DNA from: Phage NC-G
Direction: 5' to 3' (one strand)
Sequence record: MK310184
DNA length: 64,000 nt
Shown piece after piece: positions 6,336-11,600 of this stretch. Made by a program: the position numbers and the translations under genes. Position 1 is the stretch's first letter. The number at the start of each line of letters is the position of its first letter. The notes under the pieces were generated by a model. That model was not told the origin of the DNA. It saw nothing but the letters and a program-made list of their open reading frames with translations, and did no database searches.

Positions 6336-7295
6336 TTATTTTTCGAAAGGGCGAATTAAATGTTGGTTACGCTTAAACCGGTTGATGTAGTCACTTTCAC
6401 CTAGGGTCTTATACATATTCACTACAGCTTGGTAGTTTTCCCAGGCGTACTCACGGAACCACCCGGAAGTAATTGAGGTACACACTTTCTCAAGAGCCAT
6501 ATAAAAACTTAACGATGGTGAAATATTAAAGTCATTAGGAACCTGCGAACGTTCTAGTGCCAACACACAGGTTTCTTCATATACACCAGCCAGTTTAATA
6601 GCTTCAGGCAAAGCTTCAAACTTCTCACGCGAGGTCATGACTTCAGAACCATCTTTCATATAAAAGGTATATGCCGGACGTCCAGCCAATGCCACGGCTT
6701 CATGAATAGAGTCATGGTCTAATGTATAAATGGTATCATTAAAGAACGATGATTTGTTAACGTCTAATTTAGGGTGGGAATAGCTCAACGTTTCTTTCTG
6801 ACGTTGCAGCATGATTTCTTGGAGCTCTTCATTCAAGGTTACACCTTTATTACGAAGGTATTTGATGTGAGACATCGTCTTCAGAAAGAACGGGTTGTTC
6901 TTCAAATATCGATGGCTCATTTTGATAGCCAGACAGATATCAGGCGTGGCCCAATAGAAACCAGTAAGACGGTCCTTTTTAATATGATTTTCAGCATATT
7001 TCAAAAGACGATAGCTTGAAGTGAAATCTTCGTCTTGGAGCTCACCGGTGATTTCTCGTACGTTAGTCAGAGCACGGACAATATAAGCTTCAAAATAGGT
7101 TTCTTTACCATTGTACATACATTTAAAGGCTTGGACATCAGGGTTATCCACAGGAACATGGGCACCAAACATCCGAGCTTTAAAGTGATTCCACGAGCCT
7201 TGGTCGGCAATGAAATCCCAATCAGAATTTTCGATATACTTACTTTCAATCAAACCAGCGTGGTGCAGTGCACGAGAACCAATAACTAGCATCAT
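6336..7295 (-). CDS. Hypothetical protein, 319 aa
   Basis: Long ORF with ATGATG start and GAGGAAAATATT Shine-Dalgarno; no family recognised by eye. Confidence 0.55.
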   Translation of the reverse strand: MMLVIGSRALHHAGLIESKYIENSDWDFIADQGSWNHFKARMFGAHVPVDNPDVQAFKCMYNGKETYFEAYIVRALTNVREITGELQDEDFTSSYRLLKYAENHIKKDRLTGFYWATPDICLAIKMSHRYLKNNPFFLKTMSHIKYLRNKGVTLNEELQEIMLQRQKETLSYSHPKLDVNKSSFFNDTIYTLDHDSIHEAVALAGRPAYTFYMKDGSEVMTSREKFEALPEAIKLAGVYEETCVLALERSQVPNDFNISPSLSFYMALEKVCTSITSGWFREYAWENYQAVVNMYKTLGESDYINRFKRNQHLIRPFEK

Positions 7296-7308
7296 AATAT
7301 TTTCCTCA

Positions 7309-7476
7309 TTAATAAAGACGAGTTACTTCATATTTACCCAATTCAGATTTTTTTGCTTCAATTCGAGTAACAGCAAGATTAGCAGCCTCTAGTGAAGAAA
7401 ATTGGACCACTTGGGAAGTATTCTGCCTTACGCCACCTTGTGGGTGAGTAACAAAAACAATAAGAACATTATACAT
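7309..7476 (-). CDS. Hypothetical small protein, 55 aa (below the ORF-track cutoff)
   Basis: ATG preceded by the same GAGGAAAATATT module used by the adjacent gene; translates MYNVLIVFVTHPQGG... Confidence 0.35.
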   Translation of the reverse strand: MYNVLIVFVTHPQGGVRQNTSQVVQFSSLEAANLAVTRIEAKKSELGKYEVTRLY

Positions 7477-7497
7477 AATATTTTCCTCAGAGTAAAC

Positions 7498-7737
7498 TTA
7501 AATTTCAGCAACATAATCGTTATGCAACTCCCACATATCATCAGAATTATTCTTAATGATAGGAATTATCTCATTAGAGATTTCTTCTGCATAAGGGTCA
7601 TTGATACAGTGGGCATCTTCAAAACGAACACCGTAATCGGACTTCTTATAGGCAAAGCCATAAATCTTTTTAAACTTGGCACGACTAATTCGTACCGGCT
7701 CACCAGACTTATCAGACAGTGGAGAGTAATACCACAT
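7498..7737 (-). CDS. Hypothetical small protein, 79 aa
   Basis: ORF with GAGGAGAACATT Shine-Dalgarno. Confidence 0.4.
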   Translation of the reverse strand: MWYYSPLSDKSGEPVRISRAKFKKIYGFAYKKSDYGVRFEDAHCINDPYAEEISNEIIPIIKNNSDDMWELHNDYVAEI

Positions 7738-7781
7738 AATGTTCTCCTCATGTTTGTGTAGGGTAATAGTAACACAAGTTT

Positions 7782-8111
7782 TTAGAGTTGTACATCACTT
7801 CTGCAATATTCTAAAAATAATTTATCGTTGTCTACGGTATCCCAACGTCGCCAAGATGGATTCCAGACCAAAGCATTGTCACCGCAATCATTGAGCTTAA
7901 AATGGTCATAGTACATAGCTATGCGTTTAGTCTCGTCACCGGAGAACCCTAGTATAGGCTCGCCGTGGGTATGATACATATGATGGTGCATTGAGAGGTC
8001 GCATTTATAAAACATCTCACGTTTACCACGAACGAACAAGAAAGCTTGCCCGTTCATATAGAATTCTTTATCGGTTTTCAAAAGATATTTGAATACTGAA
8101 TCTTTGTGCAT
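7782..8111 (-). CDS. Hypothetical His-rich protein, 109 aa
   Basis: Start at MHKDSV with GGAGGACTT Shine-Dalgarno; contains HHHMYHTHGEP. Confidence 0.45.
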   Translation of the reverse strand: MHKDSVFKYLLKTDKEFYMNGQAFLFVRGKREMFYKCDLSMHHHMYHTHGEPILGFSGDETKRIAMYYDHFKLNDCGDNALVWNPSWRRWDTVDNDKLFLEYCRSDVQL

Positions 8112-8141
8112 AAGTCCTCCTACCACATCCTTGTGGCTATA

Positions 8142-8369
8142 TTATTTTCCTAACGAAATACGAGTAGGTTTTTTGCCAAAGTATTCTTCATAAGAACCAT
8201 CTAAACGTCCTGCTTTAGACCGGCAATATGAATCATACTTTTTGTAATAAGTCATCTCAGTATTATAACGTGGGTGTCTATCAGCCATAATAATACTTAG
8301 TGGCCAACCTTTGGCATAATCGCGAAGACCATTTATTTTACGAATGTATCTTTTCTTTAATTTTAGCAT
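8142..8369 (-). CDS. Hypothetical basic small protein, 75 aa
   Basis: ORF in the track; ATG overlaps the upstream stop. Confidence 0.4.
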   Translation of the reverse strand: MLKLKKRYIRKINGLRDYAKGWPLSIIMADRHPRYNTEMTYYKKYDSYCRSKAGRLDGSYEEYFGKKPTRISLGK

Positions 8370-8587
8370 GAGCTCGGATACCAGATTTTACCATCGGAAC
8401 GAGCAACGAAGGTGCGACCAGCTTCTTCACCATAACAAGAGCTATTCAGCCAATCTTCAAGACGAACTTCACCATCGTAATCGTCTAACTCAACACCAAA
8501 ACTTTGAGCAGAAGCCATATCTTTTACTTTCTTATACAATGCAGCCAGTTCAAGAGCAGCTTTTTCTAATTCATTAATATCAGACAT
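8363..8587 (-). CDS. Small acidic protein, tandem family member 5, 74 aa
   Basis: C-terminus IWYPSSC; N-terminal amphipathic helix; stop plus GGTGATAAA plus ATG coupling with the upstream gene. Confidence 0.5.
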   Translation of the reverse strand: MSDINELEKAALELAALYKKVKDMASAQSFGVELDDYDGEVRLEDWLNSSCYGEEAGRTFVARSDGKIWYPSSC

Positions 8588-8596
8588 TTTATCACC

Positions 8597-8806
8597 TTAG
8601 CAAGACATAGAGGATGTAAACCAGAAACCTTCACCATCTGGGATACCGTAATCATCACGGACCCATTCGTAATCATCATATTCCGGACTAGAAGCCGGAA
8701 TATATTCTTCGCCACCGGCGTGGAAGTGCTGACCTGTTTCGTCAGCCACGGACTGGCCTTTACGTACTAATTCACGGATTTGTTTTTCAATTTCATCAAT
8801 AGTCAT
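8597..8806 (-). CDS. Small acidic protein, tandem family member 4, 69 aa
   Basis: C-terminus FWFTSSMSC; same architecture as neighbours. Confidence 0.5.
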   Translation of the reverse strand: MTIDEIEKQIRELVRKGQSVADETGQHFHAGGEEYIPASSPEYDDYEWVRDDYGIPDGEGFWFTSSMSC

Positions 8807-8815
8807 TTTATTACC

Positions 8816-9013
8816 TTAGCATTCGTAAGAGGACGATACCCAAGAGGTACCGCTAATAGTAATACAACCGTTATAAAGCGTGATATGTCGTTCTAGGTCA
8901 CGAACACCATCGATATAGATATCGGCTTCTTCACGTTCTTCTTTACAAATCTGGATAACGTTTTCAATAGCTGCGGCGGCAGTACGGATTGCACAATCTA
9001 ATTCACGAGACAT
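8816..9013 (-). CDS. Small acidic protein, tandem family member 3, 65 aa
   Basis: C-terminus SWVSSSYEC. Confidence 0.5.
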   Translation of the reverse strand: MSRELDCAIRTAAAAIENVIQICKEEREEADIYIDGVRDLERHITLYNGCITISGTSWVSSSYEC

Positions 9014-9022
9014 AATATTTCC

Positions 9023-9304
9023 TTAACATTCAGAAGAGGAGGACACCCAGCCGCCATTTTCCAGGTCGGTTGTGTAGTCATGGGTATTAACAATAGCCCA
9101 TTCAGGATGACCATCTTCTTCCCAATGAGCAAGGTCAGCTTTCAAGGCGCCAGGAGAATAATAGTCACCGCCCATACCGCGAGCAGGGTATATATTAAAA
9201 TGAGTCTCATATTTGTCTGCAATTTCCTCAGCGCGGCGAATAGCTTCATGGATTTCTTTTACTGCGGCCAGAAGCTCTGGATGGTTGTGGTTATCATTCA
9301 TCAT
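9023..9304 (-). CDS. Small acidic protein, tandem family member 2, 93 aa
   Basis: C-terminus GWVSSSSEC. Confidence 0.5.
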   Translation of the reverse strand: MMNDNHNHPELLAAVKEIHEAIRRAEEIADKYETHFNIYPARGMGGDYYSPGALKADLAHWEEDGHPEWAIVNTHDYTTDLENGGWVSSSSEC

Positions 9305-9313
9305 AATAGTTCC

Positions 9314-9604
9314 TTAGCACAGCGCTGAAGAGGAGACCCAAGCACCAACTGTAACGACGCCATTTTCAACTTCACCGCCGTTGTTTTCGATTTCATCTTT
9401 AAACCACTGGGAGCATTCATAACCGACCGGATAGTATGTACGACCTGAGCCATAATCACCGGTCCCGAATTGAATACCGTACTTATCGGCAATAGCTTCA
9501 CATTTATGTTCGATGATATCTACTTTACCGAGTAGAGCATAGATAGCCTTTTCTGCAGATTTCTCGTCATTGTATTCGGGGATTTCAATTTCAATTTTAT
9601 TCAT
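9314..9604 (-). CDS. Small acidic protein, tandem family member 1, 96 aa
   Basis: C-terminus AWVSSSALC. Confidence 0.5.
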   Translation of the reverse strand: MNKIEIEIPEYNDEKSAEKAIYALLGKVDIIEHKCEAIADKYGIQFGTGDYGSGRTYYPVGYECSQWFKDEIENNGGEVENGVVTVGAWVSSSALC

Positions 9605-9954
9605 GATTTACATTCCTTAATAAAGGTTTCAAGGTCATTACATTTGGTTTGTTTTACATACTCATTATAATTAGCCATCTCTAAAGCATATCTCTTACGG
9701 ATGGGAGCATTCAAAGCATTTGTGTGGCAAATATCATACACAACAGGGATAAAATAAGCTACAACTGCCGGGGCGATTATCATATAGAACCCCATCTCAA
9801 TTGGCATGACTCCTTCTATTGCAGCCATAACCGTGGTCATTACCAGGCCAACCAGGCCGCCGAGCATACCGGTGGCAATTCCTAATAATAAATTTGAGCC
9901 AATATCATATTCAGCCAATTGATAAACATGTGATGAAAGACTAGGCCGCTCCAT
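9601..9954 (-). CDS. Hypothetical membrane protein, about 117 aa, ending in FIKECKS
   Basis: Track ORF begins at a GTG; the internal ATG at MERPSL has an AAGAGG Shine-Dalgarno; two hydrophobic helices. Confidence 0.45.
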   Translation of the reverse strand: MERPSLSSHVYQLAEYDIGSNLLLGIATGMLGGLVGLVMTTVMAAIEGVMPIEMGFYMIIAPAVVAYFIPVVYDICHTNALNAPIRKRYALEMANYNEYVKQTKCNDLETFIKECKS

Positions 9955-10483
9955 TTTGAACCTCTTTAGCGTATTCACGACATTCTTTAATAAAATTATT
10001 AAGCTTACGTTGCTGTTTACGACTTTCTAATGTATACTCGTCAGCCAAGGCAAGAAGCTCATCTTTATCGTAATTTTTAATATCCGAATAACTCGGGCGG
10101 CGGTCGACCATTCCAAATACATCACCGTTTTCTAGTGCCACATAACATACTAAATGATAATCATCATCTGCAACATTAATATGTACACAGTCAGTACTCT
10201 CGTTTAAAGAATATACTGAATATCTCACTCCGGCGAATTTAGCGCTCTGTACACCCAGATTTATGTCAATAATTTCTAAAGCTTCTGCAAAAGAAAGGTC
10301 TTCAGCTAAAGCAAAGATAAAGGGTAATTTGGTAGTATCGCCACGGCTAGATGTTCTGCTTAAGAAATCGTTTGAATAGCCTAGGTCTTGGCGAATTCTA
10401 TAAAGAACTGAATTGGTTTCATGGGAAAGACCACTATTTTTAAACCAATCAATATTTGATATAAGGTTATCATATAAACTCAT
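9941..10483 (-). CDS. Hypothetical protein, 180 aa, with FIKECR near the C-terminus
   Basis: ORF in the track. Confidence 0.45.
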   Translation of the reverse strand: MSLYDNLISNIDWFKNSGLSHETNSVLYRIRQDLGYSNDFLSRTSSRGDTTKLPFIFALAEDLSFAEALEIIDINLGVQSAKFAGVRYSVYSLNESTDCVHINVADDDYHLVCYVALENGDVFGMVDRRPSYSDIKNYDKDELLALADEYTLESRKQQRKLNNFIKECREYAKEVQNGAA

Positions 10484-10531
10484 AATATTCTCCTCTCCTC
10501 CAAATAGGGAGACCGAAGTCTCCCGGTAACA

Positions 10532-11125
10532 TTACTTAAGTGAATTAATGTAGTCTTCGATATCAGCTGAAGTCGTATCCATTCCAACTTGAGGGCCTTT
10601 AAACGTTTCTACACGCATCAGGGTGTCTTCAATATCAATCTTAGTCAGTGCAGCGATTTCAACAACGTCATCGGCAGTAGCAATACCCAATGCAGCCATA
10701 TTACGAGTTTCACGGATATATTCCAACTTAACTGCTAGTTCCTGTCGAGAGTCATCAAGTTCCTTGACCTTCAGTTTAATTTCATTACGCATTTCGATAT
10801 AATCGTCAGCTTTCTTACGAAGCTGTGTAGCCGTACGACGATAAAGGAGGCCAAGTTTAGCATGCACCTGGACATCGGCGCCTTCTTTAATCAGTTTACG
10901 AATTTCGCGTTCTTTAGAAGCAGCGAGCTGGTCTTTTTCATTTGCCAATGCACGAATGCGTTTTTCTTCATTCACCGACTTAACATGAGCGGTCTGGAGT
11001 TCAGTAATTTTATCAATCAGGGTAGAAGCAGCTTTAGTGTACTGGTCTTCGATTGACAGGTTCTGAGTCATTGCAGTACCCAGTTTAGAACGGATGAATT
11101 CAACAATTTTCTTTAAAGTATTCAT
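10532..11125 (-). CDS. Coiled-coil protein, possibly PspA/IM30-like, 197 aa
   Basis: Start at MNTLKK with GAAGGAAAT Shine-Dalgarno; long charged heptad-like helices; promoter cassette upstream. Confidence 0.45.
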
Positions 11126-11149
11126 AGTATTTCCTTCAGTCGGTTGGTA

Positions 11150-11190
11150 TTTTGTAATCCATGAGGACATTATACCCTGTCCTCTGAGGG
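11150..11190 (-). promoter_or_regulatory. Early promoter plus stem-loop cassette (PeSL-like)
   Basis: Minus strand GTTTACAaccctcaGAGGACAggGTATAATGTCCTC: -35, -10 and a GAGGAC/GTCCTC stem around the -10. Confidence 0.5.
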
Positions 11191-11200
11191 TTGTAAACAT

Positions 11201-11473
11201 TTATTTCATTTTTGCGAGGCAGATTTCGTTGGCTTCCCATTGAGCTTGCTTAATAATAGCTTTGGATACAGGAACCCTTTGGCCGTAAGTTTTTGACGTT
11301 GAGAGAACAATATATTTGTTTGCCTCATTATGCCAACCTAGTGATTTTTCACCATGAGTACCTTTAACCACAGCTGACACCTCAACAGAGCAACCGCCAT
11401 CAGAAATCTTGGTTTCTACAATCCATTCATTTCTCTCGACAGCTTCAATTTCCGATCTCCTTTTTTTCTTCAT
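11201..11473 (-). CDS. Hypothetical protein, 90 aa
   Basis: ORF in the track. Confidence 0.4.
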   Translation of the reverse strand: MKKKRRSEIEAVERNEWIVETKISDGGCSVEVSAVVKGTHGEKSLGWHNEANKYIVLSTSKTYGQRVPVSKAIIKQAQWEANEICLAKMK

Positions 11474-11600
11474 ACATGGCGGCCCAATCGGTTTTTGCTA
11501 AGTTGAAAGCAAGAGCTTTCTCTAATTCTTTGGCAACTTTTTGTTGTTCGGGTGTTAATGAATTATACAACTCTTGCATTTCTTTATCTTCGATATTCAT
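11445..11600 (-). CDS. Hypothetical small protein, 51 aa (below the ORF-track cutoff)
   Basis: ATG with GAGGAGAACATA Shine-Dalgarno directly downstream of a promoter cassette; translates MNIEDKEMQELYNSLTPEQQK... Confidence 0.35.
   Translation of the reverse strand: MNIEDKEMQELYNSLTPEQQKVAKELEKALAFNLAKTDWAAMYEEKKEIGN

What the first reader, a model, noticed from the sequence alone, without database searches (positions are those of the whole stretch)
8363..9604. Tandem array of five small acidic paralogues with a conserved W-x-SS-x-x-C C-terminus
Five consecutive minus-strand genes (65-96 aa) each have an N-terminal amphipathic helix, an acidic aromatic-rich middle, and end in WVSSSALC, WVSSSSEC, WVSSSYEC, WFTSSMSC or WYPSSC immediately before the stop. 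Intergenic spacing is a constant 9 nt in which the stop codon and following bases form the next gene's Shine-Dalgarno. The DNA encoding the tail (TGGGTnTCCTCnTC) is also conserved and is anti-Shine-Dalgarno-like, so the conservation could act at RNA level (translational coupling) as well as protein level. Small acidic tandem families in phage early regions are often DNA mimics or anti-defence proteins.
Basis: seen in the sequence. Interest (0 to 1): 0.7.

Follow-up and report, generated by a model that had tools for sequence, protein, structure and literature searches.

The report
Small Cys-tailed proteins with nucleotidyltransferase partner
Five neighbouring phage genes encode small acidic proteins that all end in the same Trp-x-Ser-Ser-x-x-Cys tail; they belong to a large uncharacterised phage family that almost always sits just upstream of one nucleotidyltransferase-like enzyme, so the two probably form an undescribed two-part phage system.

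Summary
Window 8363-9604 (minus strand) holds five ORFs of 96, 93, 65, 69 and 74 aa. All are acidic (pI 4.2-4.7), all are separated by 9-nt spacers, and all end in W-x-[S/T/P]-S-S-x(0-2)-C followed by a stop. The window is a JS98-like T4-type coliphage (Dhakavirus).

The RNA-level idea fails. Across the family the two invariant serines use all six Ser codons, and the gene junctions fold no better than shuffled sequence.

The five genes are old, distinct subfamilies rather than recent duplicates. They belong to a large family of 273 clusters at 50% identity, all 60-140 aa. The consensus is an N-terminal helix, ..IADE.G..F.F..YGMGG.YYP.., an acidic linker, then GGW.SSSxxC at the C-terminus. The family has no Pfam entry, no structural analogue and no literature.

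The new result is genetic linkage. In 54 of 57 loci found through the small protein, and 75 of 80 found through the enzyme, 1-6 tandem family genes lie just upstream, on the same strand, of a ~300-aa DUF7277-DUF7275 protein (window 6336-7295). That protein has an invariant GS...DxD...E motif, and its predicted fold is closest to MenT/ANT nucleotidyltransferases. The module is essentially restricted to phages, and T4 lacks both parts.

My best reading is inferred, not shown: the small proteins are clients or partners of this enzyme, and the exposed Ser-Ser...Cys tail is the interface or acceptor.

The parts
9314..9604 (-). Paralogue 1 (96 aa, 'GDYGSGRTYYP' subtype), ending in WVSSSALC; the tail codons are 9317-9340.
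   Evidence: phrog_899, E 7e-22. AF2 gives pLDDT 90.5. Orthologues at 33-48% identity in Klebsiella, Aeromonas and Phapecoctavirus-type loci.
9023..9304 (-). Paralogue 2 (93 aa, 'GMGG.YY.P' subtype, the commonest type in metagenomes), ending in WVSSSSEC; the tail codons are 9026-9049.
   Evidence: (phrog_899, E 3e-19).
8816..9013 (-). Paralogue 3 (65 aa, no GMGG box), ending in WVSSSYEC; the tail codons are 8819-8842.
   Evidence: (phrog_4882, E 2e-36). It is assigned to the family on the tail, the N-terminal helix and its position in the array, which is weaker than the evidence for the other four.
8597..8806 (-). Paralogue 4 (69 aa), ending in WFTSSMSC; the tail codons are 8600-8623. The orthologous gene is not annotated in the JS98 reference record.
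   Evidence: (phrog_899, E 1e-12).
8363..8587 (-). Paralogue 5 (74 aa, double-motif subtype), with an internal DWLNSSC (8435-8452) and a terminal WYPSSC (8366-8383).
   Evidence: phrog_899, E 1e-9. Orthologues at 36-66% identity in Klebsiella, Aeromonas, Pseudomonas and Phapecoctavirus phages.
8588..9313 (-). The four 9-nt intergenic spacers at 9305-9313, 9014-9022, 8807-8815 and 8588-8596. Together with the preceding TAA they read TAAGG(A/T)nnTAnnATG.
   Evidence: This is an ordinary T-even-type ribosome-binding context and no RNA structure is present.
7309..8369 (-). Four intervening small ORFs (8142-8369, 7782-8126, 7498-7737, 7309-7476). They are lineage-specific insertions between the array and the enzyme and are not part of the conserved module.
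   Evidence: In many other loci the last family gene lies only 3-100 nt from the enzyme gene.
6336..7295 (-). The 319-aa DUF7277+DUF7275 protein, a predicted nucleotidyltransferase-fold enzyme and the conserved downstream partner of the array.

Best explanation
The five genes are five old subfamilies of one large, uncharacterised family of small acidic phage proteins. That family works together with the nucleotidyltransferase-fold enzyme encoded just downstream (window 6336-7295).

Each small protein has a folded body: an N-terminal amphipathic helix packed against a small beta-sheet, with the invariant Trp in the last strand. From this body an exposed tail, S-S-x(0-2)-C-COOH, projects.

My committed mechanism is an inference. 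The tail is the element that docks into the enzyme. The small proteins are clients of the enzyme, and one of the two invariant serine hydroxyls is the acceptor for nucleotide (NMP) transfer. This is the chemistry that MenT, ANT and MntA-type enzymes perform on hydroxyl groups. The terminal cysteine (thiol plus free carboxylate) helps to anchor the tail, for example through a metal. The variable acidic middle of each paralogue would then give each modified protein its own host target, which would explain why one enzyme is accompanied by 1-6 different small proteins.

What is shown: the family, the motif, selection at the protein level, the tandem arrays, the linkage and the nucleotidyltransferase fold. 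What is inferred: physical interaction, modification, and any downstream host-takeover or anti-defence role.
For: 1. The family and motif are real. 273 cluster representatives were found, all 60-140 aa, with the match running to the last residue. 139/150 end in Cys, and among those W(-7) is present in 134/139, S(-4) in 137/139 and S(-3) in 135/139. The median net charge is -8, and 86/150 have the terminal Cys as their only Cys.
2. Selection acts on the protein. All six Ser codons and both Cys codons are used at the invariant positions.
3. The linkage holds in both directions. 54/57 IMG/VR loci found through the small protein have a ~300-aa DUF7277-DUF7275 gene just downstream on the same strand, with gaps of 3-1333 nt. 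75/80 loci found through the enzyme have 1-6 family genes within 4 kb upstream on the same strand.
4. The linkage spans unrelated phage groups: Straboviridae of Escherichia, Klebsiella and Aeromonas, Phapecoctavirus ESCO5, Acinetobacter phages, and 350-390 kb jumbo contigs. No third gene is conserved alongside; the next most frequent neighbour cluster occurs in 11 loci or fewer.
5. T4 lacks both parts at the syntenic site.
6. The enzyme looks active. GS...DxD...E is invariant, and the confident model (pLDDT 92.5) is closest to MenT1, MenT3, MenT4, ANT(2''), LnuA and JHP933.
7. The tail is the least confident part of an otherwise confident model: the last block has a mean pLDDT of 71 against 81-96 elsewhere. 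This is consistent with an exposed, flexible end.
8. Multiplicity argues against a simple one-to-one inhibitor. Arrays of 2 and of 5 are the modes, and the window's five subfamilies each have orthologues across genera.
Confidence: 0.4

Rival explanations
1. The small proteins are regulators of the enzyme rather than substrates. They would act as MenA-like antitoxins, inhibitors or specificity adaptors that bind the nucleotidyltransferase through the conserved N-terminal helix and/or insert the Ser-Ser...Cys tail as a pseudo-substrate. The enzyme's real target would be a host molecule such as tRNA 3' ends.
For: The best structural matches of the enzyme are MenT tRNA-nucleotidyltransferase toxins. 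MenT1 is controlled by a 68-aa protein, MenA1, that is encoded upstream and acts through a long helix (PMC10435456; PMC11375011). The family has a strongly conserved N-terminal helix ('AE.IADE.G'). The small genes always lie upstream on the same strand. tRNA genes lie within 6 kb in 11/57 loci, and the module is about 4 kb from the tRNA cluster in JS98.
Against: One inhibitor would be enough, yet 2-6 divergent paralogues that are conserved across genera accompany a single enzyme. In MenA1 the C-terminus is dispensable, whereas here the C-terminal tail is the most conserved element. No DUF1814/AbiEii sequence signature was detected. Enzyme-only phages exist.
Confidence: 0.25
2. The small proteins are autonomous host-targeting effectors, such as acidic nucleic-acid mimics or decoys against host defence or host enzymes. 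They would lie next to the enzyme only because both sit in the same early accessory gene block.
For: The proteins are strongly acidic and rich in aromatic residues. They are small, and their copy number varies between phages from 0 to 6, which is typical of accessory or counter-defence genes. They lie in the variable e-to-tRNA region of T-even-type genomes. The window has four unrelated ORFs between the array and the enzyme.
Against: Linkage of about 94% in both directions across unrelated phage families and genome sizes, with no other conserved neighbour, is hard to explain by position alone. There is no structural similarity to any solved DNA mimic or other protein. An invariant terminal Ser-Ser...Cys is not a feature of known DNA mimics.
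Confidence: 0.2
3. The conserved element acts in RNA. An anti-Shine-Dalgarno-like UCCUC in the tail codons would pair with the next gene's ribosome-binding site to couple translation along the array.
For: In the window, four of the five tails contain TCCTC about 15-20 nt upstream of TAAGG, and the spacing is a constant 9 nt.
Against: Family-wide, the serines are encoded by all six codons, including AGY. Paralogue 5 uses CCG AGC TCA. The junctions show no stable or shared structure (z -0.19 to +1.57). The motif is equally conserved in the last gene of arrays and in single-copy loci with no family gene downstream. Spacing is not conserved in other genera.
Confidence: 0.02

Closest known systems
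MenA-MenT (AbiEi/AbiEii-type) nucleotidyltransferase toxin-antitoxin pairs, especially MenA1/MenT1 of M. tuberculosis
   Same: A short protein (MenA1, 68 aa, long helix) is encoded immediately upstream of a minimal Pol-beta-type nucleotidyltransferase (PMC10435456). The phage enzyme's best structural matches are MenT1, MenT3 and MenT4, and it keeps the GS / DxD / third-carboxylate motifs.
   Different: There is no DUF1814 sequence match. The enzyme has an extra, unassigned ~190-aa DUF7275 domain. One to six divergent small proteins accompany each enzyme instead of one. The small proteins have a folded alpha/beta body and an invariant C-terminal W-x-S-S-x-x-C that MenA proteins lack. The module is restricted to lytic phages rather than being chromosomal. 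Neither toxicity nor tRNA activity has been tested.
MntA-HepT (MNT-HEPN) systems and aminoglycoside/lincosamide O-nucleotidyltransferases (ANT(2''), LnuA)
   Different: There is no sequence homology, no HEPN partner, and the acceptor would be Ser in a C-terminal tail. Nothing has been shown experimentally.
RiPP precursor arrays (lanthipeptide LanA genes; AviCys-forming S-x-x-C-COOH ends as in epidermin)
   Same: Several tandem small genes sit next to one enzyme gene. The residues that stay invariant are the chemically reactive Ser, Ser and a C-terminal Cys, with a variable region elsewhere. S(-3)...C(0) matches the spacing of the AviCys ring (from my own knowledge).
   Different: There is no LanB/C/M/KC/L, LanD or radical-SAM gene nearby. 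The products are confidently folded 65-100 aa proteins rather than leader-core peptides. Ser-to-Cys spacing varies from 0 to 2. No evidence of dehydration was obtained.
Acidic phage DNA-mimic proteins (T7 Ocr, T4 Arn, ArdA)
   Same: They are small, strongly acidic, early-region phage proteins.
   Different: There is no sequence or fold similarity. Known mimics have no conserved C-terminal Cys motif and no obligatory enzyme neighbour.
LysW-type amino-group carrier proteins
   Same: These are very small, highly acidic proteins whose conserved C-terminal motif (EDWGE, with a Trp near the end) is the attachment point that presents cargo to partner enzymes (from my own knowledge).
   Different: There is no homology, the partner enzymes are of a different type (ATP-grasp rather than nucleotidyltransferase), and LysW is single-copy and metabolic.

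Membership tests
PHROG phrog_899 / phrog_4882 (uncharacterised phage protein families) | Significant match to the family profile HMM. | tested here: met
   four paralogues match phrog_899 (E 1e-9 to 7e-22) and the 65-aa one matches phrog_4882 (E 2e-36). Both families are listed as 'unknown function'.
MenAT / AbiE (DUF1814 nucleotidyltransferase toxin plus antitoxin) | The toxin carries the DUF1814 domain with motifs I-IV, motif IV being unique to DUF1814. | tested here: not met
   Pfam scans of the 319-aa protein and of 44 homologues return only DUF7277 and DUF7275, even at E<=5. Motifs I-III (GS, DxD, E69) are present. No motif-IV-like signature was recognised by eye.
MenAT / AbiE (DUF1814 nucleotidyltransferase toxin plus antitoxin) | Pol-beta-type nucleotidyltransferase fold similar to the MenT structures. 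| tested here: met
MenAT / AbiE (DUF1814 nucleotidyltransferase toxin plus antitoxin) | The toxin inhibits growth and is neutralised by its cognate upstream antitoxin; it has tRNA 3'-end nucleotidyltransferase activity. | not testable with these tools
   This needs expression and toxicity assays and tRNA sequencing.
DNA-mimic anti-restriction proteins (Ocr / Arn / ArdA) | Structural mimicry of B-DNA by an ordered array of surface carboxylates; fold related to a known mimic. | tested here: not met
Lanthipeptide / AviCys RiPP precursors | A dedicated dehydratase/cyclase (LanB/C, LanM, LanKC, LanL) or a LanD-type decarboxylase encoded with the precursors. | tested here: not met
Lanthipeptide / AviCys RiPP precursors | Ser/Thr and Cys in the modified region, with Ser dehydration and thioether formation. 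| not testable with these tools
   The S-S-x(0-2)-C-COOH sequence is present. The chemistry can only be tested by mass spectrometry.
Known anti-phage defence or counter-defence components (PADLOC-DB) | A match to a curated model. | tested here: not met
   One search shows no meaningful hit for the enzyme or for three of the paralogues. The single weak hit (MTase_II, E 0.005, 13.6 bits) is not credible.

The most novel reading that the evidence does not exclude
A phage-specific post-translational modification system. One nucleotidyltransferase-fold enzyme (DUF7277-DUF7275) covalently modifies a set of 1-6 small acidic proteins on their invariant C-terminal Ser-Ser...Cys tail. The modification could be Ser-O-nucleotidylation, possibly primed extension into a short polynucleotide, or activation of Ser followed by attack of the terminal Cys to give a thioether ring. 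The modified proteins would then act on distinct host targets. This would be a new kind of enzyme-plus-client-array module in the host takeover or counter-defence of many large phages, including RB69-, JS98- and Phapecoctavirus-type coliphages.
Probability: 0.3. Interest if true: 0.85.

Novelty: categorically new. Interest (0 to 1): 0.72.

Why it matters
This module is present in hundreds of sequenced phages. They include easily handled coliphages (RB69, JS98, Phapecoctavirus), Klebsiella, Acinetobacter and Aeromonas phages used in therapy research, and jumbo phages. Yet neither part has a name, a Pfam function, a solved structure or a paper that I could find.

Three features make a concrete, quickly testable hypothesis: a last-residue cysteine preceded by two invariant serines, in up to six different small proteins per genome, tied to a single apparently active nucleotidyltransferase. 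If the tail is modified, this would add a new protein modification and a new enzyme-plus-client-array logic to phage biology. If the small proteins regulate a MenT-like enzyme, it would show that lytic phages deploy toxin-type tRNA or RNA nucleotidyltransferases under multi-partner control. Either result would assign a function to two DUFs and two PHROGs. It would also explain a conserved block in the hypervariable e-to-tRNA region of T-even-type genomes.

Tried and rejected
1. RNA junction element. Rejected on codon usage and on folding z-scores. The TAAGG+7 nt+ATG junction also occurs outside the array.

2. Recent tandem duplication. Rejected. The paralogues share only 27-30% identity and do not hit each other by BLASTP at 1e-3, while each has cross-genus orthologues.

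3. A T4 homologue. T4 e.2-e.8 were translated and none belongs to the family. T4 e.3, e.4 and e.5 instead correspond to the genes upstream of the array.

4. Known families. Pfam, NCBIfam and PADLOC give nothing for the small proteins. For the enzyme, searches of PDB sequences give nothing significant.

6. A third conserved component. None was found by clustering the neighbouring ORFs.

7. A tRNA link. tRNA genes lie within 6 kb in 11/57 loci. This is suggestive only, and I do not rely on it.

8. Bacterial (non-phage) occurrence. Only 3 MAG contigs among 100,044 species genomes carry the module, and all three have the small gene upstream, so they are probably phage contigs.

9. Literature. Full-text searches for phrog_899, DUF7275, DUF7277 and WVSSS/YGMGG found nothing relevant.

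Full report
**Observation**

The window is a JS98-like T4-type coliphage (genus Dhakavirus). Region 7000-11500 is 94% identical to Escherichia phage JS98.

On the minus strand, searches show five consecutive ORFs:
- 9314-9604, 96 aa, ending WVSSSALC
- 9023-9304, 93 aa, ending WVSSSSEC
- 8816-9013, 65 aa, ending WVSSSYEC
- 8597-8806, 69 aa, ending WFTSSMSC
- 8363-8587, 74 aa, ending WYPSSC

Each is separated from the next by exactly 9 nt. The TAA stop plus the following bases form TAAGGA or TAAGGT ahead of the next ATG. All five proteins are acidic, with pI 4.2-4.7 and net charge -6 to -12. In their alignment the only invariant columns besides Met1 are W, S, S and the terminal C. No other ORF of 40 aa or more in the 64-kb window has such a tail. 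Paralogue 5 carries the motif twice, with an internal DWLNSSC at 8435-8452.

**Protein-level or RNA-level conservation**

I extracted the last eight codons of 78 non-identical family tails from many phages.
- The invariant serines at -4 and -3 are encoded by TCT, TCA, TCC and TCG and also by AGT and AGC (17/78 and 22/78).
- Cys is encoded by TGC (54) and TGT (24).
- The four junctions in the window fold no better than dinucleotide shuffles (z = -0.06, +0.62, -0.19, +1.57) and share no structure.
- The junction type TAAGG+7 nt+ATG occurs 7 times on the minus strand of the window, and only 4 of these are in the array.
- Other genera use different spacings.

The anti-Shine-Dalgarno or translational-coupling idea is rejected as the reason for the conservation. 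What is selected is the peptide W-x-[S/A/P]-S-S-x-x-C-COOH.

**The family**

Four paralogues match phrog_899 and the 65-aa one matches phrog_4882. Both PHROGs are of unknown function. Pfam, NCBIfam and PADLOC give nothing.

An exhaustive profile search found 273 cluster representatives at 50% identity with E<=1e-3. All are 60-140 aa, and the match nearly always runs to the last residue. The consensus is an N-terminal amphipathic helix ending in AE.IADE.G..F.F, then aYGMGGtYYP, then an acidic Trp/Ser-rich linker, then GGW[VIL][SAP]SSxxC.

Of 150 representatives:
- 139 end in Cys. Among those 139, W(-7) is present in 134, S(-4) in 137 and S(-3) in 135.
- 86 of the 150 have the terminal Cys as their only Cys.
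- The median net charge is -8.
- 16 have extra internal W-x-S-S-x-C copies.

**The five genes are old subfamilies**

The five proteins share 27-30% identity and do not find each other by BLASTP at 1e-3. Each nevertheless has orthologues at 36-66% identity in Klebsiella, Aeromonas, Pseudomonas or Phapecoctavirus-type phages.

T4 itself has no member at the syntenic site. T4 e.3, e.4 and e.5 correspond instead to the two genes upstream of the array.

**The key new finding: linkage to an enzyme**

I fetched 57 IMG/VR loci through the small protein's YGMGG box and clustered all neighbouring ORFs. The only widely shared neighbour is a ~300-aa protein, present in 59 of the 64 loci then held. This cluster contains window 6336-7295. 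In 54 of the 57 IMG/VR loci, and in all the reference phages that carry the family, it lies just downstream of the family gene(s) on the same strand, at gaps of 3-1333 nt. Two of the exceptions are cut by contig ends.

I then sampled the other way, taking 80 loci through the enzyme. Of these, 75 have 1-6 family genes within 4 kb upstream on the same strand. Arrays of 2 and of 5 are the commonest.

The linkage holds in:
- Straboviridae of several genera
- the unrelated Phapecoctavirus ESCO5, which has three members plus the enzyme
- Acinetobacter phages
- contigs from 40 to 390 kb

A scan of 100,044 bacterial and archaeal species genomes found only three MAG contigs. Each again has a small gene upstream, so the module is essentially phage-restricted. 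Shorter DUF7275-only proteins of actinophages lack the small genes.

**The enzyme**

Window 6336-7295 encodes a 319-aa protein with Pfam DUF7277 (residues 2-101) and DUF7275 (residues 120-305). It has 2241 homologues at E<=1e-5.

In 44 diverse homologues G6, S7, D25, D27 and E69 are invariant. This is the hG[GS]...DxD...E signature of Pol-beta-type nucleotidyltransferases. Many residues of the C-terminal domain are invariant as well, including H128, H174, D193-H194-D195, H198, C243 and C272.

- JHP933, LnuA and TM1012

This is fold-level similarity only. No Pfam nucleotidyltransferase model matches any of the 44 homologues, and PDB sequence searches are empty.

**Interpretation**

The shown facts are:
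- a large family with an invariant, exposed, chemically reactive C-terminal tail
- selection acting at the protein level
- tandem arrays of conserved subfamilies
- a two-way linkage of about 94% to a single, apparently active nucleotidyltransferase-fold enzyme
- no third conserved gene

From these I infer that the small proteins and the enzyme form one functional module. My committed mechanism is that the small proteins are clients. The Ser-Ser...Cys tail docks in the enzyme, and a serine hydroxyl accepts NMP. This is the kind of hydroxyl chemistry that MenT enzymes perform on tRNA 3'-OH and that MenT1 and MenT3 perform on their own Thr/Ser (PMC10435456, PMC11375011), and that ANT and LnuA perform on antibiotic hydroxyls. 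The variable acidic body of each paralogue would specify a different host target. The multiplicity of conserved paralogues per enzyme, and the fact that the tail rather than the helix is the most conserved element, favour this model over a simple inhibitor.

The main rival is a MenA-like regulator or adaptor role. MenA1 is a 68-aa helical protein encoded upstream of MenT1. The second rival is that the small proteins are autonomous acidic effectors, such as DNA mimics or decoys, and that the linkage is only positional. None of these was tested directly, because the tools predict single chains only.

**Novelty**

Full-text searches for phrog_899, DUF7275, DUF7277 and the motif strings found nothing relevant. 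Reference annotations call these genes hypothetical, miss them, or mislabel them.

The closest known arrangement is a short protein upstream of a MenT-type nucleotidyltransferase. The module fails the sequence-level membership test for that family. It also differs in copy number, in the tail motif, in the extra DUF7275 domain and in being phage-restricted. I therefore rate the module as lying outside every described kind of system, while stressing that its function is inferred and not demonstrated.

Noticed in passing
window 8597-8806 (= L001 7599-7808 in JS98 NC_010105): The 69-aa family member is left unannotated in the JS98 reference record, which lists only four of the five genes.
   Followed up: partly
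window 9601-9978 and 9941-10483 (minus strand): The two genes just upstream of the array overlap by 38 nt. Both carry a 'FIKEC(K/R)' motif at or near the C-terminus, as do T4 e.3, e.4 and e.5 ('VIDCRKIK', 'FVKESRCK', 'FVKECREYVKAI'). This is a second small repeated Cys-containing C-terminal motif in adjacent genes.
   Followed up: no
window 8435-8452 (inside paralogue 5): Paralogue 5 and its orthologues in Aeromonas, Klebsiella, Pseudomonas and Phapecoctavirus phages carry the motif twice: an internal DW[LQ]xSSCYGE plus the terminal copy. 16 of 150 family representatives have extra internal W-x-S-S-x-C copies.
   Followed up: partly
RB69 ORF139c (UniProt Q7Y506; P0051): In RB69 the orthologue of paralogue 1 is a 71-aa truncated protein that ends '...SQWYEK' and lacks the W..SS..C tail. 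It may be a natural knockout or a sequencing or annotation frameshift.
   Followed up: no
L003 (phage HX01) 2804-3076 and 3334-3585; P0195 (Klebsiella phage VAC36): There are evident mis-annotations in public records. A 90-aa family member is labelled 'tail completion protein', a neighbouring 83-aa ORF is labelled 'major capsid protein', and the nucleotidyltransferase-fold enzyme is labelled 'prohead assembly scaffold protein'.
   Followed up: no
L017, L023, L031-L034, L039, L043, L044, L053; L064 (Gordonia phage OneUp); JS98 L001 12525-12754: The module, or the DUF7275 gene alone in OneUp, lies within a few kb of phage tRNA gene clusters in a sizeable minority of lineages: 11/57 loci, and about 4 kb away in JS98. 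Given the MenT-like fold this could hint at a tRNA connection, but I did not test it statistically.
   Followed up: partly
L090 (Enterobacter phage CC31), L125/L126/L132, L140; L021: Exceptions to the linkage exist. Five enzyme loci have no family gene within 4 kb upstream, although CC31's close relatives have two. One family gene (L021, on a 306-kb contig) has no enzyme within 6 kb.
   Followed up: partly
window 6336-7295 (enzyme), residues C243 and C272: The enzyme has two invariant cysteines and several invariant His/Asp residues in the DUF7275 domain, including an 'LDHDSIH' box. Together with the invariant terminal Cys of the small proteins, this suggests a possible shared metal site. This is pure inference.
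   Followed up: no
L008 5986-7590; L027 5992-7190; L128; L142/L146: Metagenomic phage contigs carry independent arrays of 4-6 family genes with very divergent tails (for example WQASTC, WNTSYC, WQGSSC, WYSSHC). Array formation is therefore a recurrent property of the family and not a peculiarity of T4-like phages.
   Followed up: partly
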